Shown: positions 53,471 to 62,775 of the stretch, one piece after another
Position numbering within the stretch: position 1 is the first letter of the stretch
Layout: every line of letters begins with the position of its first letter
Assembly (NCBI GenBank): GCA_003168265.1
Contig: PMSV01000007.1
Location: 8,429-72,428, forward strand
Direction of reading: 5' to 3'
Length of the DNA: 64,000 nt
Source: Chitinophagaceae bacterium
GTDB lineage: Bacteria > Bacteroidota > Bacteroidia > Chitinophagales > Chitinophagaceae
The notes under the pieces: model-generated
Databases searched by the model: none
The model's input: only the letters and a program-made list of their open reading frames with translations
Told to the model about the DNA's origin: nothing
Position numbers and translations under genes: made by a program

Positions 53471-55570
53471 GTGAAACCTACGCAACGCATGAAGCAGCAC
53501 TTTTTGGTCCTATTATTAAGTATTGGATCCCTTAGGCTATTTTCCCAGGCGCCTCCTGCCGCAGACTCTTCCGATTCCAAAACCTTGAAAGAAATCGTGA
53601 TCAAAGCTTATGAACAAAACAGGACCCTTTCTGAGGTAGCCGCACCCGTTGTAATTACGGGCCCATCCCAACTCAACCGCTTCAGCAATATGAGCATCCT
53701 GCCTGCCCTTAATATCAATCCGGGTGTCAGCATGGAAGAACGATCCCCGGGAAGTTACCGGCTCAATATCCGAGGCAGCTCACTCAGGTCACCCTTCGGC
53801 GTCCGTGATGTAAAAATCTATCTGGATGATATTCCGCTTACTGATCCCAGTGGTAATACTTATCTGAATCAAATCAGTTTCTATAATGTCCAATCAGCAG
53901 AAATCATCAAGGGACCAGCGGGAAGCCTATATGGGGCCAGCCTTGGGGGAGCCATGCTGATCCATACCCAACCCAGGCAATTTGACCAGGGCATAGACCT
54001 CGATTATTCATTGGGCAGTTACGTGACTAACAACCTTCACGCTGACATTCGCTTCGGATCAGATGACAGGCAGAATGATTTGGGGTTTACCCATCAATCC
54101 AGCAATGGGTATCGTCAACAAACCCAAATGCATCGCGACATCGGAACCTGGGCCACCACCCTCAAGTCTTCGGACAAACAGGAACTAAAAGCCTATTTTT
54201 CCTATGGAAGTCTCTATTACCAAACCCCTGGCGGTCTCACTAAGGCCCAATACGATTCCAATGCTACTCAAGCCAGGCCAGGGTCGATAGCTGCTCAGGC
54301 TGCCATCTTCCAGAAAAATTTTCTAATTGGTTTTACCAATATCTATCATATAACAGATAAATGGCAAAATTCCACCACGGTATACGGAACCTATACTGAC
54401 TTCATCAATCCGGGTCTAAGGGTCTATGAATATAGGAAGGAGCCGCATTTCGGAGGACGCTCGGAATTCCAGTATAAGGACCAATTCGGTGAACTCCAAT
54501 TTCAATTCAATGCAGGAGTCGAATACCAGAAAGGTTTTTTCAATACCAGGGACTATGGAAACAAGCAGGGAGTGGCTGACTCCCTCGAAACCGACAACAA
54601 TATCAACCTCTGGCAATACATGATCTTTTCCCAGGTCGATCTCAGGTATAAGGGCTGGGTACTGACCCTGGGCGGAAGCCTCAATAAATCCTCAGTTGAG
54701 TTCATCAACCTCTACACCCTGCCAGCTTCTCCTTCCACGATACAAACCCGGACCTTCGAAAACAAGCTTCCTCCCCATATTGGTCTTTTAAGAAAACTCA
54801 CTGAAACACTATCCGCCTATATCAATATCGCTCGCGGTTTCTCCACGCCGACCACCGCCGAAATGTTAAGTTCCGATGGAATGTTCGGCACCAATCTCCA
54901 GCCCGAAGATGGCATGGACTATGAATTAGGTTTCAGAGGCTCCCTGCTGCATGACAGGTTATATTTCGACTTCAGTGGCTTTCTTTCCCACCTGCACAAT
55001 ACCATCGTGCAACGCATTGACACAAACGGAGTCTACTATTACGTCAATGCAGGATCCACAAAACAAAACGGGATTGAAGTCTATATCTCCTACCAGCTAG
55101 TCGAACAGTCCATCGGACCCATCAATAGCGCCAAGCTCTTTTTGAGTTATGCCTATCATGATTTTCATTATAGCAGTTTCGAACAGCTTAATGCCGATTA
55201 TTCCGGAAACAAAATGCCGGGAGTAGCCCCTCATACGGTCGTCGCTGGGCTTGACCTTTATTTTCTTCAGAATTTTTATTTCAACGCAACTTACAATTAT
55301 AGCGCTTCCATCGATCTTAATGATGCCAATACAGTTATCGCCTCCCCATTTCAATTATTCGGAGCCCGTATAGGATACAGGAAACCCCTCTCTAAAAAAT
55401 TTCGAATGGAATTTTTTGCCGGTGCCGACAATCTCTTCAATGTCAAATACAGCCTTGGAAATGATTTCAATGCCGCAGCCGGCCGATATTATAATGCGGC
55501 CCCCGGAAGGAATTTATATGCGGGGATTATTCTTAAAGACCTGTTCATAAAATCAACGCCTCATTCTTAA
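53471..55570 (+). CDS. TonB-dependent receptor, substrate unknown
   Basis: Plug domain (NIRGS...DDIPLT...IKGPAGSLYG) and C-terminal barrel (YYNAAPGRNLYAG). Start may be the ATG at 53489. Confidence 0.92.
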   Translation: MKPTQRMKQHFLVLLLSIGSLRLFSQAPPAADSSDSKTLKEIVIKAYEQNRTLSEVAAPVVITGPSQLNRFSNMSILPALNINPGVSMEERSPGSYRLNIRGSSLRSPFGVRDVKIYLDDIPLTDPSGNTYLNQISFYNVQSAEIIKGPAGSLYGASLGGAMLIHTQPRQFDQGIDLDYSLGSYVTNNLHADIRFGSDDRQNDLGFTHQSSNGYRQQTQMHRDIGTWATTLKSSDKQELKAYFSYGSLYYQTPGGLTKAQYDSNATQARPGSIAAQAAIFQKNFLIGFTNIYHITDKWQNSTTVYGTYTDFINPGLRVYEYRKEPHFGGRSEFQYKDQFGELQFQFNAGVEYQKGFFNTRDYGNKQGVADSLETDNNINLWQYMIFSQVDLRYKGWVLTLGGSLNKSSVEFINLYTLPASPSTIQTRTFENKLPPHIGLLRKLTETLSAYINIARGFSTPTTAEMLSSDGMFGTNLQPEDGMDYELGFRGSLLHDRLYFDFSGFLSHLHNTIVQRIDTNGVYYYVNAGSTKQNGIEVYISYQLVEQSIGPINSAKLFLSYAYHDFHYSSFEQLNADYSGNKMPGVAPHTVVAGLDLYFLQNFYFNATYNYSASIDLNDANTVIASPFQLFGARIGYRKPLSKKFRMEFFAGADNLFNVKYSLGNDFNAAAGRYYNAAPGRNLYAGIILKDLFIKSTPHS

Positions 55571-55620
55571 GGAACTGTGTAAAACTTCTTTTGGAGAAAA
55601 ATAATTCTCTGCTATTTTTG

Positions 55621-55818
55621 TTATGGTTTTGGTTCACCGGCCTCAGGCCGGTGATTAAAAGGGAAGTCCGGTGAAATTCCGGCGCTATCCCCGTAGCTGT
55701 GAGCTCTTTAGTGGTTGGAGAAAAATTCAACCATACTGTCCGGTCTCTACACCACTGTCCCCAAGAAGGGATGGGAAGGTACCGGCCAGCGAGCAAGCCA
55801 GAAGACCTGCCAGATCCT
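55621..55818 (+). promoter_or_regulatory. Cobalamin (B12) riboswitch
   Basis: AAAAGGGAAGTCCGGTGAAATTCCGGCGCTATCCCCGTAGCTGTG...CCACTG...GGGAAGG...GCCAGAAGACCTGCC. TATTTTTG promoter at 55613-55620; lies upstream of btuB. Confidence 0.95.
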
Positions 55819-55954
55819 TTCTCAACATTCATCAGCTTTCGGGTGAAAAGCATGGAATGTAAAATGCCAAAGGCAATTTATATTTCACCAGTTTTGTTTT
55901 TCCGAAGGTTCATTCATTAACCGCTTTCAAAAAGAAAGCATCAAAAAATTAAGA

Positions 55955-57877
55955 ATGAGCAAGTTTTTTTTTCTGGCTGCAGTCCTAATCCTTTCGGCCT
56001 CCCTTTCAAAAGCCCAAACCGACACAGTTAAAGAAACTAAAAAACTAGATGAAGTCGTCATCACGGCTTCAAAAGTGAATCTCAAGCAATCCCAGACCGG
56101 TAAAGTAATCATTGTCATCTCCAAAGAAGAAATCGAAAAAAGCGAGGCCAAAAGCCTGGGACAATTACTTAATGAACAAGCGGGAGTCATCATCGGCGGA
56201 GCCCTCAACGATGCAGGCACCAATCAGAGTATTTATATACGCGGAGCTACATCCGGTCGCGTCCTCGTATTGATTGATGGCATACCGGTTTACGATCCTT
56301 CCATCACGGACAATTCATTTGATCTCAATCTCATGCCGATCGACGGGATCGAACGCATCGAGATATGTAAAGGCGCCCAATCCACTCTCTATGGTTCAGA
56401 TGCCATCGCAGGCGTGATCAATATTATCACGACCAGGACCGATCCCCAAAAACCACTCAATCTCAAAGCAAACCTTGCGGGAGGAAGTTATGGAACGATC
56501 CGTGGCGGAGCTCAATTGTATGGAAAAATTGCCGACGACCTCGTCTACAATGTCCGCTATAACAAATATAAGACGGACGGCTTTCCAATGGCCTATGACA
56601 GTACGGGAAAGGGGCATTTCAGCAATGACGGCTACAATGGTGATGCACTTGCTGCCAGCCTGACCTGGAAGGCGCTAAGCCATCTGCAGATCAAAGGATT
56701 TGCAGAGTATAACAGATACATCACCAATCTTCCCGCAGGCGCCTTTACAGATGCCCAGGATTATACCAATACAAGCAAGAACATCCTGCTCGGAGGCAGC
56801 GCCACCTATCAACTTCGGGGGACCAGTCTCCATGCCAATTACCAATATGCCACTTATGATCGTCAACTGCTTGAAGACAGCGTCGATGGACAATCCTATT
56901 ATACCGACCATTATTTTGGAAAGACCCAGTTCCTTGAATTGTTTGCAAGCAGCAAGCTGGGAAATGGATTCACCTGGCTCAATGGAGCCGATTACCGCTT
57001 CGCATCCATGAATGAACAAAGCAATTATGGAAATTTCAATGACACTTCCCTCAAACAGGGATCAGTCTATAGTTCCGTATTCTATTCGCAAAAATCGGGC
57101 TTCAATGCCGAACTGGGAGGGAGATTCAATGCTAACTCCCGCTACGGGACCAACTTCACCTATACATTCAATCCCTCCTTTGTCTTCAATAATACCTGGA
57201 AATTCTATGCAAGCATATCATCCGGATTCAAAGCTCCGACCCTCTATGAACTCTATTCTTCCTATGGAGACAAAAACCTCCAGCCTGAAACTGCCTTGAA
57301 CTATGAAGCAGGTCTTCAGTATTCTGATAAAAGTTTCAGCACCAGGGCCACTTTCTTCTACAGGAAAATCCATGATGGCCTTGACTTCAATTACGTTACC
57401 TATCTCTATTACAATTACACAGAACAAAATGCCGATGGCATTGAATGGGAAAACAAATGGCAAATCACCAAAACCTTCAGCATCACTGCCAACTATACCT
57501 TTACGCATATCAATGAGCAAACCCAGAGTCATATCACCTATGACGATACGACCTATGCTTATGCGCTGCGGATACCCACACATGCCATCAATGCAAGCCT
57601 CGGTTGGAAACCGGTCAAAAACCTCTTCATCAGCATCAGCGCCCATTATGAAAGCAAACGTTACGACCTGGGAGGATACGATGCCAGTTTCAATCCCTTG
57701 CCAGATGTGACATTAAAAAGCTTTGTCATCTTCAATGCCTATGGCGAATACTATTTGAAATCCTGGTTGAAATTGTTCGCCGATGCAAAGAACCTGTTCA
57801 ATACCCAGTTCTTCACGATCTATGGCTATAATTCCATTCCCTTCATGGTCAATGCAGGCGCTTCCATCAGCCTTTAA
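55955..57877 (+). CDS. btuB: TonB-dependent cobalamin receptor (BtuB-like)
   Basis: TonB box LDEVVITA, plug (IRGA...VLVLIDG, IERIEI.KG.QSTLYGSDA), barrel; downstream of a B12 riboswitch. Confidence 0.88.
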   Translation: MSKFFFLAAVLILSASLSKAQTDTVKETKKLDEVVITASKVNLKQSQTGKVIIVISKEEIEKSEAKSLGQLLNEQAGVIIGGALNDAGTNQSIYIRGATSGRVLVLIDGIPVYDPSITDNSFDLNLMPIDGIERIEICKGAQSTLYGSDAIAGVINIITTRTDPQKPLNLKANLAGGSYGTIRGGAQLYGKIADDLVYNVRYNKYKTDGFPMAYDSTGKGHFSNDGYNGDALAASLTWKALSHLQIKGFAEYNRYITNLPAGAFTDAQDYTNTSKNILLGGSATYQLRGTSLHANYQYATYDRQLLEDSVDGQSYYTDHYFGKTQFLELFASSKLGNGFTWLNGADYRFASMNEQSNYGNFNDTSLKQGSVYSSVFYSQKSGFNAELGGRFNANSRYGTNFTYTFNPSFVFNNTWKFYASISSGFKAPTLYELYSSYGDKNLQPETALNYEAGLQYSDKSFSTRATFFYRKIHDGLDFNYVTYLYYNYTEQNADGIEWENKWQITKTFSITANYTFTHINEQTQSHITYDDTTYAYALRIPTHAINASLGWKPVKNLFISISAHYESKRYDLGGYDASFNPLPDVTLKSFVIFNAYGEYYLKSWLKLFADAKNLFNTQFFTIYGYNSIPFMVNAGASISL

Positions 57878-57887
57878 AATCAAACAA

Positions 57888-58469
57888 ATGATTATACATC
57901 CATCTCATCCTAGAACCGGAGTCCTGATCGGGATCAGTCTTCTAGTTGCCGCTTTCAGGATCATTTGCAATTTCAGTCCTTCACTCAACGACCTGGCAAA
58001 CTTTTCACCGCTGGCCGCCATCCCTCTTTTTGCGGCGGCCTATTTCAAGGGCTTCTGGAAACCCTTCGCATTCACGATGGCTGTGATGTTTATCAGTGAT
58101 CAGGTCCTATTCACTACCGTCTATAAAAATTATGGCAATGGTTTTCTCTATCATGGTTGGTTTTGGGTCTATGGGTCCTTCGGACTTATCTGCATACTGG
58201 GAAAATTGATTATCCGGGAAGACAAATGGGGGGGCATATTAATCACCATGGTTCTTTCAGTACTGATCCACTGGATCGTATCGGATATTGGAGTCTGGAA
58301 TCATAGTCCTATCTATTCCCAGCACATGGCCGGCTATCTCAGTTGTCTTGCGGCCGCCATACCATTCGAAATACGCTTGCTATTAGCCACCCTGATCTAT
58401 GGCGGCCTATTATTCGGATCATTCCAATGGCTGAAAATGAAATTTCCAATACTTCAATCAAAATCATGA
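57888..58469 (+). CDS. DUF6580-like membrane protein, putative transporter
   Basis: About 5-6 TM segments; NFSPLAAIPLFAAAYF, SD.G.W and Y.AAIPF motifs. ATG at 57888. Confidence 0.7.
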   Translation: MIIHPSHPRTGVLIGISLLVAAFRIICNFSPSLNDLANFSPLAAIPLFAAAYFKGFWKPFAFTMAVMFISDQVLFTTVYKNYGNGFLYHGWFWVYGSFGLICILGKLIIREDKWGGILITMVLSVLIHWIVSDIGVWNHSPIYSQHMAGYLSCLAAAIPFEIRLLLATLIYGGLLFGSFQWLKMKFPILQSKS

Positions 58470-59401
58470 AAGCCTGTTCCTTTCTCCCTGCGGCCACGAG
58501 GATGATCTACGATATGGGTCTCCAGGACCTGCTCCATGGAGTAACATTTGAATGCCCGGCACCCGAGGAGAAGGCCAGGGTCGTTCGCTGCCTTCTGGAA
58601 GGAAAATCCTATTCCAGTCAGGAAATAGATAAGATCTTCTCCCATTCCAAGGCAAGCGGCAAGAGCCTTTACTATGTCGATGATGAACTCTTACAAAGGA
58701 TCGCTCCCGATATCGTTTTTACCCAGGATATCTGTGAGGTCTGCCAGATAGATACAGAGGCGACCGCAAAGGCCGTCTATAAACTGAAAAATCCTCCCCT
58801 CCTCATCTCCCTGAATCCCCAAAACCTTGACGATGTTTACCAATCAGCCCTGACCATTGCCCGGGTCCTTAACCATGAAGATGCAGCCTATGGCTATCTT
58901 TCCGGCTTGCAAAAGCGGACTCAACGAATCCTGGACAGACTTCGGGAAAACCACATGCCCTTGAAAAGGGCATCCCTTTTCGAATGGATCGACCCCATTT
59001 ACAATTGCGGGCATTGGATCCCCTTCCAGATCGGTCAGGCGGGAGCCGTAGATCTGCTCGGCAATCCTGGTGGTGACTCCATCGTCATCGATTTTGAAAA
59101 GGTTAGCAAATACAATCCCCAGATCCTTATCATAGCGCCCTGCGGATTTGAGACCCGGCGAACCCTCGAAGAGATGGAAATCCTTAGGCAAAAGGCGGGC
59201 TGGGAGGAACTCCAGGCCGTTCAGGACAAAAAAGTCTATATAATGGATTATGAACTGTTTACCCAACCCAGCCCTTCCACTCTGGTAGATGGCATTGAAC
59301 TGCTCTCGGCCCTCATTCATCCCCAGATCTTTGAAATTCCCATGCACCTGAAACACAAATTCCAGGACTTTTTCAAAATCAAGGCCCATGTGCAAACATG
59401 A
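58466..59401 (+). CDS. BtuF-like cobalamin-binding fold protein without signal peptide
   Basis: SFLPAATRMIY.MG...GVTFEC, PD.V.TQD.C.VC, EWIDP...GHWIP and PQILIIAPCGF motifs. ATGA overlap with the previous gene. Confidence 0.8.
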   Translation: MKACSFLPAATRMIYDMGLQDLLHGVTFECPAPEEKARVVRCLLEGKSYSSQEIDKIFSHSKASGKSLYYVDDELLQRIAPDIVFTQDICEVCQIDTEATAKAVYKLKNPPLLISLNPQNLDDVYQSALTIARVLNHEDAAYGYLSGLQKRTQRILDRLRENHMPLKRASLFEWIDPIYNCGHWIPFQIGQAGAVDLLGNPGGDSIVIDFEKVSKYNPQILIIAPCGFETRRTLEEMEILRQKAGWEELQAVQDKKVYIMDYELFTQPSPSTLVDGIELLSALIHPQIFEIPMHLKHKFQDFFKIKAHVQT

Positions 59402-59606
59402 TGAAATGGCTTGCCCCCGATGCGAAATACCCTTTGAATGCCGGATTGGCGATATTTCCAATTGTCAATGCACGGGCATTGCCTTTAGTATAGAAGAAAA
59501 AGCATTTATCGAAGACCGTTACCAGGGATGTCTATGCCGTGAATGTCTTCTGGAACTCAAGCAGCGCCACATTCTTTTCATCGAAAAATACTTTTACCAT
59601 GGATGA
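59388..59606 (+). CDS. Cysteine-rich CWC family protein
   Basis: CPRC..PFEC.....C.C......CLC..CL pattern; overlaps both neighbours. Confidence 0.85.
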   Translation: MCKHDEMACPRCEIPFECRIGDISNCQCTGIAFSIEEKAFIEDRYQGCLCRECLLELKQRHILFIEKYFYHG

Positions 59607-60336
59607 ACAACACAGGCCTCGGGCTTACATGAATTGGAGTGGAGGAAAAGATTCAGCGCTCTGCCTATTCAAGGCGATCCAAAATGAACAGTTTGAAATC
59701 ACCCATCTTCTCACCTCGATCAACTCTGTTCACAATCGTATCTCCATGCATGGTGTGCGCCGGGAATTGCTCTACCAACAAGTGCATGAAATTGGTCTTC
59801 CTCTACTCACTATCGAAGTCCCTGAGCAGCCCAATATGCAGGAATATGAACAGGCAATGTTTCAAAAAGTCGAAGCACTCAAAGATATCGGCTGCACCCA
59901 CGCCATCTTCGGTGATATTTTCCTCGAAGACCTCAGGCAATACCGGGAAAATAAATTAAAGGAGGCCGGCATTGTATGCAATTTTCCACTTTGGAAACAA
60001 TCTACACGTGAACTTGTTTATGAGTTTCTGCGCCTCGGTTTTAAGACCATAATCGTCTGCGTCAATGAACAATTCCTTGGCTCATCCTTTTGCGGCCGGA
60101 TCATCGATGAAAATTTCCTTAGTGACCTGCCGGATAATGTTGATCCTTGCGGAGAAAACGGGGAATTCCACAGCTTTGTCTATCAAGCTCCCCTATTCAA
60201 AAACCCCATCTCAATCAATAAAGGCGAAATCGTTTACAGAAAATATGCCGCTCCTAAAAACGCCGACGACGACCAGCATTCCTGTGCGGGAACAGCAGAC
60301 TACGGGTTTTATTTCTGTGATATCCTGCCAGTGTGA
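59599..60336 (+). CDS. Dph6/DUF71-like PP-loop ATP pyrophosphatase (diphthine-ammonia-ligase-like)
   Basis: WSGGKDS PP-loop, GDIFLEDLR.YRE and DPCGENGEFHSFV motifs. ATG at 59599. Confidence 0.88.
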   Translation: MDEQHRPRAYMNWSGGKDSALCLFKAIQNEQFEITHLLTSINSVHNRISMHGVRRELLYQQVHEIGLPLLTIEVPEQPNMQEYEQAMFQKVEALKDIGCTHAIFGDIFLEDLRQYRENKLKEAGIVCNFPLWKQSTRELVYEFLRLGFKTIIVCVNEQFLGSSFCGRIIDENFLSDLPDNVDPCGENGEFHSFVYQAPLFKNPISINKGEIVYRKYAAPKNADDDQHSCAGTADYGFYFCDILPV

Positions 60337-60384: not shown

Positions 60385-60963
60385 ATGCATATATCCCTGA
60401 ATGAGCTACTCACCGTCACCTTCACGCTATTTGCGGTGATAGATATCATCGGATCTGTCCCCCTGCTCGTATCCCTCAAAACCAGTTTAGGCAGTATTAA
60501 TGCCCGGAAAGCCACGTTAATATCCGGTGGCCTTATGATCGTTTTCCTATTCTTCGGCCAGCCATTTCTCAACATACTCGGTGTAGACGTACATTCCTTT
60601 GCAGTCGGCGGTTCCATCCTTATTTTTATCCTTGGCCTCGAAATGGTGCTCGGCATGGAGTTCTTCAAAAGTGATAAAAACGCCCGCGCCAGCACAGCCG
60701 TTCCCATCGCTTTTCCGCTGATAGCCGGCTCCGGAACACTCACAACGATAATGTCCTTAAAGGCTAATTATGAAGAACTTACCGTCCTCATCGCCATCCT
60801 GATCAACTTAGTGATAATTTACATAGTTTTGCGCTCCCTGAACCTGATCGAGACCCTCATCGGTCCGGCCGGAATGATCGCCGTCAGAAAGTTTTTCGGT
60901 GTGATTTTACTCGCCATCGCGGTTAAAATCTTCAGCGCAAATGTCGGCGGCCTGATCAAGTAG
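60385..60963 (+). CDS. MarC family membrane protein
   Basis: LFAVIDIIGSVP, PIAFPLIAGSGT and KFFGVILLAIAV motifs. Confidence 0.92.
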   Translation: MHISLNELLTVTFTLFAVIDIIGSVPLLVSLKTSLGSINARKATLISGGLMIVFLFFGQPFLNILGVDVHSFAVGGSILIFILGLEMVLGMEFFKSDKNARASTAVPIAFPLIAGSGTLTTIMSLKANYEELTVLIAILINLVIIYIVLRSLNLIETLIGPAGMIAVRKFFGVILLAIAVKIFSANVGGLIK

Positions 60964-60981: not shown

Positions 60982-61056
60982 GGTCCCGTAGTTCAATGGA
61001 TAGAATAGAAGTTTCCTAAACTTTTGATACAGGTTCGATTCCTGTCGGGACTACCA
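60982..61056 (+). tRNA. tRNA-Arg(CCT)
   Basis: Acceptor GGTCCCG/CGGGACT, anticodon stem GAAGT/ACTTT with loop TTCCTAA, T-loop GGTTCGATTCC, encoded CCA. Confidence 0.96.
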
Positions 61057-62620
61057 AACCGGAATTAGAGTCTAAAAAAAGGGGAGATGAAAATTCTTCT
61101 TGCTGGTAAAGCCTTGATTGTTCTGAGATTGACGAAAAAACTGAGTTCATTTTACAGGTTCGATATGTGTTATTTTGAAAATCATAAGACACACCTTCAG
61201 GAAAAATTAAGTTTTGAAGGCCCTGCTTGATCTCAAAACTGCCAGAAGTCCACATCACATTGAGTTTAGAGCTTAATTTCACAGAGTAATGGACAAAATT
61301 ATCAAGGTTCGATAATTTTAATTCGGTCTTTTTTAGTTCGTTATTAATATGACTTATTTCCTCATTAAACTTTGCTGTGATACGCTTATAAACTTCATCA
61401 TCCTCAATTTTGCCTAATGCATACCTCTCCTGAACTTTAAAAAGGTTATCCTGGGCTTCATGTAGTTTAGTCCTAAGCAATATTTTCGTAACCTCACTAT
61501 CCTTATTCAATGCCTTAAAAGTCAACGAAAGTTGCAACTTTAATGGTTCAATATATTTTTCAGGTATAGTATAGTTAGACAGATATTCATTGAAAGAGGA
61601 GTGCATTATATCAGCGTTTCTATTATGTCTACACCCTCTTTTATTGCACTTGTAGTAGATGGCCTTTTTGTTTACAACAGAATAACCAACGCAAGTAGTT
61701 CCGCAATAGTCACATTTCACGAACCTTTTTAAAGGGAATATGTCATCATTATTCTTTTTCACAAACGTTTTTGCCTGGTCAAAACCAATATTATTTGCTT
61801 TTAGAAATACTTCTTCACTAATAAGCGGTTCATGCCTTCCTTTCACAATCTCATTCCCAAGTAACCTATTTTTAATATACCCGCAATAAAAAGGATTCCG
61901 GAATATATCGAATAACCTTTTCTCATTTATAAAATGACCGAACGATTTACACCGCATCGAGATTTCATAATTTGTCAATCCCTGCTCAACTTTTAATAAA
62001 AAGGCTTTGCGGATAATTTCACCTACATTATTAATAACTAATTTTTGCTCACCCAATTCTTTAGCGTGGACATATCCGATTGGAGCCTTACCCATCCAAT
62101 ACCCATTTAGCAATTTCTCCTTCGACCCAGCCACACATTTTTCTTTACGCAATTCATTATCATACTGTCCGAATAAAAATTGTATGTTTTGCTGAAATGT
62201 TCCGCTGGAAGTTTTTGTATCAGTTGGCTGTGTACATGCAATAATATGCACTCCCATCTTTCTTAATTCATCTGCAACCGAAATAGCAGCCCCTCCCGTT
62301 CGAGAAAATCTATCAATACTATAAACGATAATATAATTGATTTTCTCAGTTGAGCTTCTTACAAATGACAGCATTCTTTGAAACTCTTTCCTGGCATCAC
62401 TTTTAGCGCTTTCATATTTGCGCCCAAACTCCCCTAATACGTTATAGCCATTTTTGTCTGCATATTGTTTGCAATATTTTAATTGTATTTCCAAGCTATC
62501 ATTGTTTTCAGCTTGTTCCTTTGTGGAAACACGCGTATAAATAACAACGTTTTTCTTGTTATTATCATGCGAATCGGCGTTGGCTTTATAAAGGCTTTTT
62601 ATTAATTCGATATTACTCAT
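61016..62620 (-). CDS. Large serine recombinase (resolvase + recombinase + Zn-ribbon + coiled coil)
   Basis: YTRVST catalytic Ser, ESAK, DRFSR, APIGY, CDYC...YYKC...C. ATG at 62620. The 3' end overlaps tRNA-Arg on the opposite strand. Confidence 0.93.
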   Translation of the reverse strand: MSNIELIKSLYKANADSHDNNKKNVVIYTRVSTKEQAENNDSLEIQLKYCKQYADKNGYNVLGEFGRKYESAKSDARKEFQRMLSFVRSSTEKINYIIVYSIDRFSRTGGAAISVADELRKMGVHIIACTQPTDTKTSSGTFQQNIQFLFGQYDNELRKEKCVAGSKEKLLNGYWMGKAPIGYVHAKELGEQKLVINNVGEIIRKAFLLKVEQGLTNYEISMRCKSFGHFINEKRLFDIFRNPFYCGYIKNRLLGNEIVKGRHEPLISEEVFLKANNIGFDQAKTFVKKNNDDIFPLKRFVKCDYCGTTCVGYSVVNKKAIYYKCNKRGCRHNRNADIMHSSFNEYLSNYTIPEKYIEPLKLQLSLTFKALNKDSEVTKILLRTKLHEAQDNLFKVQERYALGKIEDDEVYKRITAKFNEEISHINNELKKTELKLSNLDNFVHYSVKLSSKLNVMWTSGSFEIKQGLQNLIFPEGVSYDFQNNTYRTCKMNSVFSSISEQSRLYQQEEFSSPLFLDSNSGLVVPTGIEPVSKV

Positions 62621-62775
62621 AAATACAAGTTGCTCTGAAATTAAAAAATTGATACGCAAGGATTGAAAATTGATACAGGACATTGATCACCGAAACACCT
62701 TCTTCATCGGAGATATTTTGAAAACCTTCAAATTGCTTTAATTGTGATAAGGTTATTATTGACATAATTGTAGGA

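What the first reader, a model, noticed from the sequence alone, without database searches (positions are those of the whole stretch)
59388..60336. Coupled CWC metal-binding protein and Dph6-like amide ligase under B12 control
Established: Dph6 amidates a carboxylate using ATP and ammonia, and bacteria do not make diphthamide, so the substrate differs. Corrinoids carry multiple amide side chains. Seen: intact PP-loop, 8-bp overlap with an 8-Cys protein, and position in a B12 operon. Inference: candidate enzyme that repairs or completes deamidated corrinoids, with CWC as a Zn, Fe-S or Co-binding partner.
Basis: inference. Interest (0 to 1): 0.62.

Follow-up and report, generated by a model that had tools for sequence, protein, structure and literature searches.

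The report
B12-operon PP-loop enzyme with Cys-rich partner
The two overlapping genes are real and sit in the genome's only vitamin-B12-switched operon, but the link between this enzyme family and B12 was published in 2012; its reaction is still untested, and the small cysteine-rich neighbour is a general B12-operon gene, not a dedicated subunit.

Summary
One cobalamin riboswitch, the only one in this 4.3-Mb genome, heads a tightly packed operon:
- BtuB-like receptor
- DUF6580 membrane protein
- leaderless BtuF-like protein
- 72-aa Cys_rich_CWC protein
- Dph6-like PP-loop ATPase
- possibly MarC

The ATPase belongs to the DUF71-B12 subgroup that de Crecy-Lagard et al. (2012) linked to B12 salvage. 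It has an intact SGGKDS loop and the ENGEFH motif in place of Dph6's catalytic Glu. That part is known, although no experimental test turned up.

New here:
- None of 50 DUF71-bearing Bacteroidota genomes encode CbiB, and 38 of 50 also lack CobS, including this one. The published idea of a CbiZ-like step feeding CbiB therefore cannot apply here.
- CWC is linked to DUF71 by tight coupling, conserved adjacency and one complete natural fusion, plus one truncated probable fusion.
- CWC also sits behind B12 riboswitches without DUF71, as BtuB-CWC-MarC, MetE-CWC and DUF6580-CWC. Most CWC genomes lack DUF71.

CWC is therefore a broader B12-regulon metalloprotein candidate, not an obligate DUF71 subunit.

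The parts
55613..55828 (+). Cobalamin riboswitch (RF00174), leader of the operon
   Evidence: cmscan gives 104.9 bits against a gathering score of 31.5, over the full-length model. It is the only RF00174 hit in the 4.3-Mb genome.
55955..57877 (+). BtuB-like TonB-dependent outer-membrane receptor
   Evidence: Plug and TonB_dep_Rec_b-barrel domains. The best NCBIfam hit is TIGR01779 TonB-B12, at 255.8 bits, below the equivalog cut-off of 599.7.
57888..58469 (+). DUF6580 small polytopic membrane protein, a candidate inner-membrane corrinoid carrier. The ORF is open from 57783; the probable start is the ATG at 57888, 10 nt after the btuB stop.
   Evidence: PF20221 at 142.9 bits. The same gene recurs behind riboswitch-BtuB in L005, L009, L064, L095, L096, L098 and L110.
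58466..59401 (+). Leaderless (cytoplasmic) BtuF-like Peripla_BP_2 protein. Its start overlaps the DUF6580 stop (ATGA).
   Evidence: PF01497 at 51.2 bits. The N-terminus MKACSFLPAATRMIYDMGL has no signal peptide. Orthologues at 56-65% identity occupy the same position in L005, L009, L022, L064, L095, L096 and L098.
59388..59606 (+). 72-aa Cys_rich_CWC protein with 8 invariant Cys, a putative Zn or Fe-S protein. It overlaps the upstream gene by 14 nt.
   Evidence: PF14375 at 46.4 bits. Invariant Cys are listed. The AF2 model has mean pLDDT 75.7, with a beta-hairpin plus two helices, and has no PDB fold match.
59599..60336 (+). DUF71-B12 subgroup PP-loop ATP pyrophosphatase (Dph6-like). It overlaps CWC by 8 nt.
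   Evidence: PF01902 at 121 bits. phmmer E = 1.8e-21 to PF0828 (3RJZ), with ENGEFH aligned to EGGEFE. The PP-loop and the G185-E189/H191 motif are invariant in 22 relatives.
60385..60963 (+). MarC/NAAT-family membrane protein, 48 nt downstream. It is a possible last gene of the operon or merely a syntenic neighbour.
   Evidence: PF01914 at 101.4 bits. It follows the B12 genes in L001, L093, L103-L105 and L118, but is inverted in L046.
60982..61056 (+). tRNA-Arg(CCT), marking the end of the unit
   Evidence: ARAGORN and RF00005.

Best explanation
**Shown**
- This is a B12-repressed corrinoid acquisition and processing operon in a B12 auxotroph. The genome has a MetH-like methionine synthase, four further B12-binding-domain genes, and no MetE, CbiB or CobS.
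- The 245-aa enzyme is a member of the DUF71-B12 subgroup of PP-loop ATP pyrophosphatases.

**Inferred**
- After BtuB and a DUF6580-type carrier bring a complete corrinoid into the cell, a leaderless BtuF-like protein holds it in the cytoplasm.
- The DUF71-B12 enzyme then uses ATP to adenylate an oxygen function of the corrinoid. The most likely target is a side-chain carboxylate left by deamidation or incomplete amidation. Ammonia then displaces AMP and restores the amide. This is the chemistry of its relative Dph6.
- The 8-Cys CWC protein is a small cytoplasmic metal-binding helper, carrying Zn or Fe-S. It is made in step with the enzyme and can act next to its N-terminal ATP site, since it is fused there in another genome.
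- CWC's role is wider than this enzyme. It probably handles or reduces corrinoids in B12-starved cells generally.
For: **Identity**
- PF01902 hit, intact SGGKDS loop, and ENGEFH in place of Dph6's EGGE/DxE188. This is exactly the signature the 2012 paper gives for DUF71-B12.

**B12 control**
- This is the only riboswitch in the genome.
- In 16 of 49 DUF71 genomes the gene lies downstream of RF00174. In two of them the riboswitch lies 100-150 nt directly in front of DUF71.
- Other neighbours of DUF71 are BtuB, DUF6580, the BtuF-like protein, DUF5074, methylmalonyl-CoA mutase, and CobU with BluB-CobT.

**Acts on complete corrinoids**
- CbiB is absent from 0 of 50 DUF71 genomes tested, that is, from all 50. 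It is present in 38 of 152 DUF71-less genomes of the same sample.
- CobS is present in only 12 of 50. Both are absent here.
- No MetE or BtuR was found by tblastn, and a MetH-like gene is present.

**CWC as partner**
- The overlap is 8 nt here.
- CWC lies no more than about 50 nt upstream of DUF71 in L002, L007, L009, L046, L064 and L092.
- A natural 294-aa CWC-DUF71 fusion exists, and a second, truncated one (P0172).
- CWC-DUF5522 fusions lie beside DUF71 in L022 and L089.

**Substrate plausibility**
- B12 amide side chains hydrolyse to biologically inactive carboxylic acids (PMC9822362).
Against: - No biochemical or genetic test of any DUF71-B12 protein was found.
- The Glu-to-His change at the catalytic position means the reaction may differ from Dph6-type amidation.
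- 33 of 49 DUF71 genes in the sample are not next to a riboswitch.
- CWC is absent from 43 of 49 DUF71 genomes at the Pfam threshold, so the enzyme does not need it.
- CWC occurs in B12 operons without DUF71, and also next to glycerol kinase or ABC transporter genes with no B12 context.
- The metal content of CWC is unknown, and its model has no structural relative.
Confidence: 0.4

Rival explanations
1. This is the published hypothesis. DUF71-B12 replaces bacterial CbiZ: it cleaves or otherwise processes pseudo-B12 and other cobamides to adenosylcobyric acid, which CbiB and the nucleotide-loop enzymes rebuild into the preferred cobamide.
For: The 2012 study found 75 of 102 family members next to B12 transporters, 18 of 102 next to cbiB, and anti-correlation with bacterial CbiZ. 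In a minority of Bacteroidota, DUF71 sits beside CobS, CobU or CobT (G168, G187 and G123).
Against: This genome has neither CbiB nor CobS. None of 50 DUF71-bearing Bacteroidota genomes (31 genera) have CbiB, although 38 other genomes of the same sample do. Without CbiB, cobyric acid is a dead end. A PP-loop ATP pyrophosphatase is also an unlikely amide hydrolase.
Confidence: 0.04
2. The pair does not touch corrinoids. Like MetE or class I/III ribonucleotide reductases, it is a B12-independent backup function that the riboswitch switches on only when B12 is scarce, acting on some other carboxylate or carbonyl substrate.
For: CWC follows riboswitch-controlled metE in three genomes (L087, L088 and L108). 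In G033 and G185 the riboswitch directly precedes DUF71. 33 of 49 DUF71 genes are not riboswitch-linked.
Against: DUF71 is embedded between transport and binding genes far more often than beside metabolic genes. It also neighbours the B12-dependent mutase and Cbi-salvage genes. In L088 the metE-CWC operon continues into a TonB receptor and the BtuR adenosyltransferase, so even there the context is B12 handling. No B12-dependent enzyme with a matching PP-loop bypass is known.
Confidence: 0.13
3. The enzyme and CWC process the imported cofactor in another ATP-dependent way. Candidates are exchange or removal of the upper ligand (decyanation or dealkylation), cobalt reduction for adenosylation with CWC as a small Fe-S or thiol donor, or sulfur or other nucleophile transfer to an adenylated corrinoid group, as in LarE- or TtuA-type PP-loop enzymes.
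For: CWC has 8 invariant Cys. In Sulfurospirillum, a CWC gene lies between cbiA and sirC in the norcobamide cluster and is co-induced with it. CWC lies in an operon with BtuR in L088. No BtuR-type adenosyltransferase was found in this genome by tblastn. The catalytic Glu is replaced by His.
Against: PP-loop enzymes adenylate O atoms of carboxylates or carbonyls and have no precedent for cobalt-ligand chemistry. No thio-corrinoid is known. Most DUF71 genes have no Cys-rich neighbour. PduO-type adenosyltransferases were not searched for.
Confidence: 0.15
4. CWC is only a bystander. It would be a small zinc-ribbon-like protein that drifts through operons, and its overlap with the DUF71 gene here would have no functional meaning.
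For: Genome co-occurrence of CWC and DUF71 is negative (6 of 49 against 59 of 152). In two gut-type families CWC is not near riboswitches; in one of them (two loci read) it follows a glycerol-kinase-like gene. In the same-genus genome G159 it is fused to DUF5522 beside an ABC transporter.
Against: 15 of 46 CWC genomes tested place it within 5.5 kb downstream of a cobalamin riboswitch, where about 0.1 would be expected. One complete CWC-DUF71 fusion and one truncated probable fusion exist. Spacing to DUF71 is consistently 50 nt or less across several genera.
Confidence: 0.15

Closest known systems
DUF71-B12 subgroup of DUF71/COG2102/PF01902 (de Crecy-Lagard et al. 2012, Biol Direct 7:32, PMC3541065; e.g. 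P. furiosus PF0295)
   Same: PP-loop SGGKDS. ENGEF/YH motif instead of EGGE/DxE188. Physical clustering with B12 transport genes.
   Different: This genome, and all 50 DUF71-bearing Bacteroidota genomes tested, lack CbiB, the enzyme on which the paper's functional proposal (a CbiZ equivalent) depends. The paper does not describe the CWC partner or the BtuB/DUF6580/leaderless-BtuF context.
Dph6 diphthine-ammonia ligase (EC 6.3.1.14; PF0828, PDB 3RJZ/3RK1; yeast YLR143W)
   Same: Same fold family and ATP site (phmmer E = 1.8e-21). The likely chemistry is the same: adenylation of a carboxylate, then attack by ammonia.
   Different: The catalytic Glu188 is His here. The score is far below the TIGR03679 equivalog cut-off (84 against 197). 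The host is a bacterium, which has no diphthamide, and the gene is under B12 riboswitch control.
Corrin amidating enzymes CobB/CbiA and CobQ/CbiP
   Same: They carry out ATP-dependent amidation of corrin side-chain carboxylates, the reaction proposed for this enzyme.
   Different: They are unrelated in fold (CbiA/MinD-type ATPase plus glutaminase domain). They form acyl-phosphate rather than acyl-adenylate intermediates, act in de novo synthesis, and were not looked for directly in this genome.
Cys_rich_CWC (PF14375) and DUF5522 (PF17653) small Cys-rich proteins
   Same: The 72-aa protein is a clear PF14375 member with all 8 Cys. Relatives are often fused to DUF5522, and one (plus a truncated second) is fused to DUF71.
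   Different: Neither family has an assigned function or a solved structure. The window's copy has CQC instead of CWC and no DUF5522 domain.
Bacteroides B12 acquisition loci (riboswitch-btuB with BtuG/BtuH surface binders and BtuFCD)
   Same: A riboswitch-led btuB operon in Bacteroidota. Related loci carry DUF5074 lipoproteins behind btuB.
   Different: There is no BtuCD ABC importer in the operon. Instead it has DUF6580, a signal-less BtuF-like protein, CWC and DUF71-B12.

Membership tests
DUF71-B12 subgroup (COG2102/PF01902) | PF01902 domain above the gathering score | tested here: met
   121.2 bits against 23.2.
DUF71-B12 subgroup (COG2102/PF01902) | Intact PP-loop SGGKD(S/T) | tested here: met
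   NWSGGKDS at residues 12-19. W13, S14, G16, K17 and D18 are invariant in 22 relatives.
DUF71-B12 subgroup (COG2102/PF01902) | ENGEF/YH motif replacing the EGGE/DxE188 of Dph6 | tested here: met
   CGENGEFHSF aligns to AGEGGEFETF of PF0828. G185-E189 and H191 are invariant. The motif definition is given.
DUF71-B12 subgroup (COG2102/PF01902) | Physical clustering with B12 transport or salvage genes | tested here: met
   It lies in the same riboswitch operon as BtuB, DUF6580 and the BtuF-like protein. 16 of 49 sampled genomes have DUF71 downstream of RF00174.
DUF71-B12 subgroup (COG2102/PF01902) | Co-occurrence with CbiB. This is the basis of the published CbiZ-like function, not of family membership. 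| tested here: not met
   No PF03186 hit in the window's own genome or in any of 50 DUF71 genomes. 38 other genomes of the same sample do have it.
DUF71-B12 subgroup (COG2102/PF01902) | Absence of bacterial CbiZ | not tested
PF01955 was not searched.
Dph6 diphthine-ammonia ligase | Score above the TIGR03679 equivalog cut-off | tested here: not met
   84.4 bits against 197.3.
Dph6 diphthine-ammonia ligase | Catalytic Glu188 (PF0828 numbering) | tested here: not met
   It is replaced by His191.
Dph6 diphthine-ammonia ligase | Diphthine on EF-2 as substrate (Dph2/Dph5 pathway present) | not tested
   It is established knowledge that bacteria lack diphthamide. Dph2 and Dph5 were not searched for here.
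Cys_rich_CWC (PF14375) | Domain hit above the gathering score | tested here: met
   46.4 bits against 24.
Cys_rich_CWC (PF14375) | Conserved set of eight cysteines | tested here: met
   C9, C12, C18, C26, C28, C48, C50 and C53 are invariant in 14 sequences.
Cys_rich_CWC (PF14375) | Literal C-W-C tripeptide | tested here: not met
   It reads CQC here and in most of the aligned B12-operon relatives. CWC is seen in L113 and L022-type relatives.
Cys_rich_CWC (PF14375) | Metal binding (Zn or Fe-S) | not testable with these tools
   There is only the Cys pattern and an AF2 model of moderate confidence with no PDB match.
Cobalamin riboswitch (RF00174) | Full-length covariance-model match above the gathering score, upstream and on the same strand | tested here: met
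   104.9 bits over model positions 1-189.

The most novel reading that the evidence does not exclude
DUF71-B12 together with a small Cys-rich module (CWC, often with DUF5522) forms a previously undescribed cytoplasmic corrinoid repair system. B12 auxotrophs would use it to re-amidate or otherwise reactivate damaged B12 scavenged from the environment, spending ATP to do so. CWC would be a general corrinoid-handling metalloprotein of B12-starved cells, serving this enzyme and other B12-regulon functions.
Probability: 0.2. Interest if true: 0.75.

Novelty: new member of a known kind. Interest (0 to 1): 0.42.

Why it matters
DUF71-B12 is a widespread enzyme family, present in about a quarter of sampled Bacteroidota. 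It has been tied to vitamin B12 since 2012 but has never been given a reaction.

Two results here sharpen the question. The family is mutually exclusive with CbiB in this phylum. It also occurs mostly in genomes that cannot rebuild the nucleotide loop. Together these remove the only published functional proposal for these organisms. The remaining options all involve a modification of complete corrinoids, which is directly testable with deamidated B12.

If a B12 repair step exists, it would change how usable B12 pools in soil, water and gut are estimated. It would also give PF14375 and PF17653 their first function.

Tried and rejected
- **Metagenome scan for CWC relatives.** I used whole-genome family searches instead.
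- **Fold search of the CWC model.** Foldseek against PDB gave no hit with E <= 0.001, only insignificant zinc-finger-like matches. No fold assignment was possible.
- **Promoter and terminator scan of the operon.** Counts matched shuffled expectation, and the sigma-70 consensus is not suited to Bacteroidota. This was uninformative.
- **Literature searches for experimental work.** I searched for work on DUF71-B12, Dph6-related proteins, DUF6580, PF14375, and PP-loop with cobamide. Only the 2012 analysis and papers citing it turned up.
- **Diphthamide function.** Rejected because of the bacterial host, the Glu-to-His change and a score below the equivalog cut-off.
- **CbiZ-equivalent function.** Rejected for this organism because it has no CbiB and no CobS.
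- **CWC as an obligate DUF71 subunit.** Rejected because genome co-occurrence is negative and DUF71-free B12 operons carry CWC.
- **MarC as a proven operon member.** Left open. It is syntenic in many Chitinophagaceae but inverted in L046.
Full report
**Anatomy**

A full-length cobalamin riboswitch lies at 55613-55828 on the + strand (RF00174, 104.9 bits). It is the only one in the 4.3-Mb, 100%-complete genome. The genes that follow on the same strand are listed below.

| Coordinates | Gene | Junction with the previous gene |
|---|---|---|
| 55955-57877 | BtuB-like TonB-dependent receptor | 126 nt after the riboswitch |
| 57888-58469 (probable start) | DUF6580 membrane protein | 10 nt after the btuB stop |
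| 58466-59401 | Peripla_BP_2 (BtuF-like) protein with no signal peptide | ATGA overlap |
| 59388-59606 | 72-aa Cys_rich_CWC protein | 14-nt overlap |
| 59599-60336 | PF01902 Dph6-like protein | 8-nt overlap |
| 60385-60963 | MarC/NAAT membrane protein | 48-nt gap |

A tRNA-Arg(CCT) follows at 60982-61056. The 8-nt overlap depends on using the ATG at 59599. Some homologues start at the equivalent of Met11, which would leave a 22-nt gap instead.

**Identity of the enzyme**

The protein carries NWSGGKDS. Its sequence CGENGEFHSF aligns to AGEGGEFETF of P. furiosus PF0828 (PDB 3RJZ, E = 1.8e-21). The Glu188 that Dph6 uses near diphthine is therefore His here. It scores 84 bits on the archaeal Dph6 equivalog model, whose cut-off is 197.

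De Crecy-Lagard et al. 2012 (PMC3541065) defined the DUF71-B12 subgroup by exactly this ENGEF/YH motif. They also found that 75 of 102 members lie next to B12 transporters and 18 of 102 next to cbiB. They proposed that the subgroup substitutes for bacterial CbiZ in pseudo-B12 salvage.

In an alignment of 22 relatives from my loci, these residues are invariant: the PP-loop, H51, Q61, GDI (105-107), E117, P130, W132, D182, G185-E189 and H191. The gene is thus a typical member of a published but biochemically untested family. I found no later experimental work.

**Strength of the B12 link in this phylum**

PF01902 occurs in 50 of 201 sampled Bacteroidota genomes. In 16 of 49 of these, the gene lies within 7 kb downstream of an RF00174 riboswitch on the same strand. 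With one to two riboswitches per genome of about 4 Mb, about 0.1 such cases would be expected by chance. In G033 and G185 the riboswitch sits 100-150 nt directly in front of the DUF71 gene.

The architectures vary (RS = riboswitch):
- RS-BtuB-DUF71
- RS-DUF71-BtuB-DUF6580
- RS-BtuB-DUF6580-BtuF-like-DUF71
- RS-BtuB-CWC-DUF71

Outside riboswitch operons, DUF71 neighbours include:
- a B12-dependent methylmalonyl-CoA mutase in Chryseobacterium (L020)
- a BtuB-like receptor with a DUF5074 lipoprotein (L029)
- a Sir2-family gene (L095)
- CobU with BluB-CobT (L089)

**Test of the published functional idea**

A CbiZ-like step only makes sense if CbiB can take the cobyric acid product. The evidence against this is:
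- The window's genome has no CbiB and no CobS.
- It does have a MetH-like 901-aa gene and four more B12-binding-domain genes.
- It has no MetE or BtuR detectable by tblastn.
- None of 50 DUF71-bearing genomes from 31 genera have CbiB.
- In the same 201-genome sample, 38 of 152 DUF71-less genomes do have CbiB. Fisher p = 1e-5, not corrected for phylogeny.
- CobS is present in only 12 of 50 genomes, from 4 genera.

In this organism, and in most of the phylum, the enzyme therefore cannot be part of nucleotide-loop remodelling. It must act on complete corrinoids or on something else.

It does remove its main published rival. Re-amidation remains the simplest reading of a Dph6-type ATP pyrophosphatase placed between a corrinoid-binding protein and the end of an uptake operon. 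B12 side-chain amides are known to hydrolyse to inactive mono- to heptacarboxylic acids (PMC9822362), so a substrate plausibly exists.

**The CWC protein**

Eight Cys are invariant in 14 relatives (C9, C12, C18, C26, C28, C48, C50, C53). Here the name-giving tripeptide reads CQC. An AF2 model (mean pLDDT 75.7) shows a CxxC beta-hairpin and two helices. It has no significant PDB match. The profile finds 1,754 representative proteins, nearly all stand-alone and 65-100 aa long.

Evidence that CWC works with DUF71:
- It lies no more than about 50 nt upstream of DUF71 in L002, L007, L009, L046, L064 and L092, and about 0.1-0.6 kb upstream in L004 and L005.
- A natural 294-aa fusion has PF14375 at residues 5-51 and PF01902 at 62-257 (L114).
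- A second, truncated fusion exists (P0172).
- CWC-DUF5522 fusions lie beside DUF71 in L022 and L089.

Evidence that CWC is not specific to DUF71:
- Only 6 of 49 DUF71 genomes have CWC, while 129 of 401 Bacteroidota genomes do. Co-occurrence is negative (6 of 49 against 59 of 152).
- CWC lies within 5.5 kb downstream of a cobalamin riboswitch in 11 of 40 further CWC genomes and in 4 of the 6 above.
- Five Chitinophagaceae have RS-BtuB-CWC-MarC. Three of them were verified to lack DUF71 anywhere in the genome (L103-L106 and L118).
- Three genomes have RS-MetE-CWC (L087, L088 and L108). In L088 the operon continues into a TonB receptor and BtuR.
- One genome has RS-DUF6580-CWC (L110).
- Two genomes have RS-BtuB-DUF5074-CWC-...-DUF6580 (L107 and L112).
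- In Sulfurospirillum, a CWC gene lies between cbiA and sirC in the norcobamide cluster and is co-induced with it (PMC7755780).
- In two gut-type families CWC is not riboswitch-linked, and in the two loci of one of them that I read it follows a glycerol-kinase-like gene.
- In a genome of the same genus as the window, CWC is fused to DUF5522 beside an ABC transporter, and that genome has no DUF71.

CWC is therefore best seen as a small metal-binding accessory of B12 regulons that sometimes teams up with DUF71.

**Mechanism and odds**

Shown: family membership, riboswitch context, absence of loop-assembly genes, and the gene-order and fusion links.

Inferred: the cytoplasmic location of the BtuF-like protein and CWC (neither has a signal peptide), the corrinoid as substrate, and adenylation followed by amidation.

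| Reading | Odds |
|---|---|
| Corrinoid side-chain amidation or repair | about 0.35-0.4 |
| Other ATP-dependent cofactor processing, with CWC as redox or thiol helper | about 0.15 |
| A non-corrinoid function needed when B12 is scarce | about 0.13 |
| The CbiZ-like role | about 0.04 |
| Something not yet imagined | the remainder |

**Novelty**

The core of the finding, a Dph6-like enzyme in a B12 operon whose substrate is not diphthine, has been in print since 2012. The new points are modest but useful:
- the exclusion of CbiB-dependent models in Bacteroidota
- the CWC-DUF71 fusion
- the independent B12-regulon association of PF14375

Earlier notes of this scan had reached similar views on DUF71-B12 and on CWC/DUF5522. 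Those notes are unreviewed, and I re-derived the points I cite.

**Limits**
- CbiZ, CobQ and PduO-type adenosyltransferases were not searched for.
- Statistics across genomes are not phylogeny-corrected.
- Neither multimer modelling nor docking was available.

Noticed in passing
window 60385-60963: A MarC/NAAT-family membrane protein follows the B12 genes. It does the same in at least six other Chitinophagaceae loci (RS-BtuB-CWC-MarC and RS-BtuB-DUF71-MarC) but is inverted in L046. It could be an operon member with a transport role or merely a conserved neighbour.
   Followed up: partly
window 57888-59401: DUF6580 and a signal-less BtuF-like protein sit where BtuCD/BtuF would be expected, and there is no ABC permease or ATPase in the operon. 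This suggests an ABC-independent inner-membrane route for B12 with a cytoplasmic acceptor protein.
   Followed up: partly
window 61016-62683 (-) and 60982-61056 (+): A 555-aa recombinase-like ORF on the minus strand ends inside or abuts the tRNA-Arg(CCT) gene. It is followed by AT-rich genes of unknown function up to the window end. This looks like an integrated mobile element at the tRNA.
   Followed up: no
window 53471-55570: A second TonB-dependent receptor lies directly upstream of the riboswitch. Its best NCBIfam hit is PqqU, at 186 bits, far below the cut-off of 1200.
   Followed up: no
L087 1929-4666; L088 6376-8986 (-); L108 5147-7650 (-): In three Bacteroidota genomes from different families, a cobalamin riboswitch controls metE followed immediately by a CWC gene. 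In L088 the operon goes on to a baeRF-family protein, a TonB receptor and BtuR.
   Followed up: partly
L114 2586-3470 (-): The natural CWC-DUF71 fusion (294 aa) is not near a riboswitch. It lies beside a 663-aa Cys/His-rich ORF and a 143-aa ORF, both unscanned; from their first residues I guessed a metal-transporting ATPase and a Fur-family regulator, which would hint at a metal-homeostasis context.
   Followed up: no
L022 5995-7370; L089 4274-4918: There is a second, shorter DUF71 clade (about 215 aa, SWSGGKDSC..., also with ENGE(F/Y)H). It sits in tandem with the P0001-type copy (L022), or with CobU and BluB-CobT and near CobS (L089; CobS).
   Followed up: partly
L095 4606-5301: A Sir2-family (CobB-type sirtuin) gene is inserted between the leaderless BtuF-like gene and DUF71 in one riboswitch operon.
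   Followed up: no
one search hit table: Homologues carry a precomputed Pfam family PF28410 covering the C-terminal ~190 residues. This family is not in the Pfam copy available to hmmscan here, so its name and definition could not be checked.
   Followed up: no
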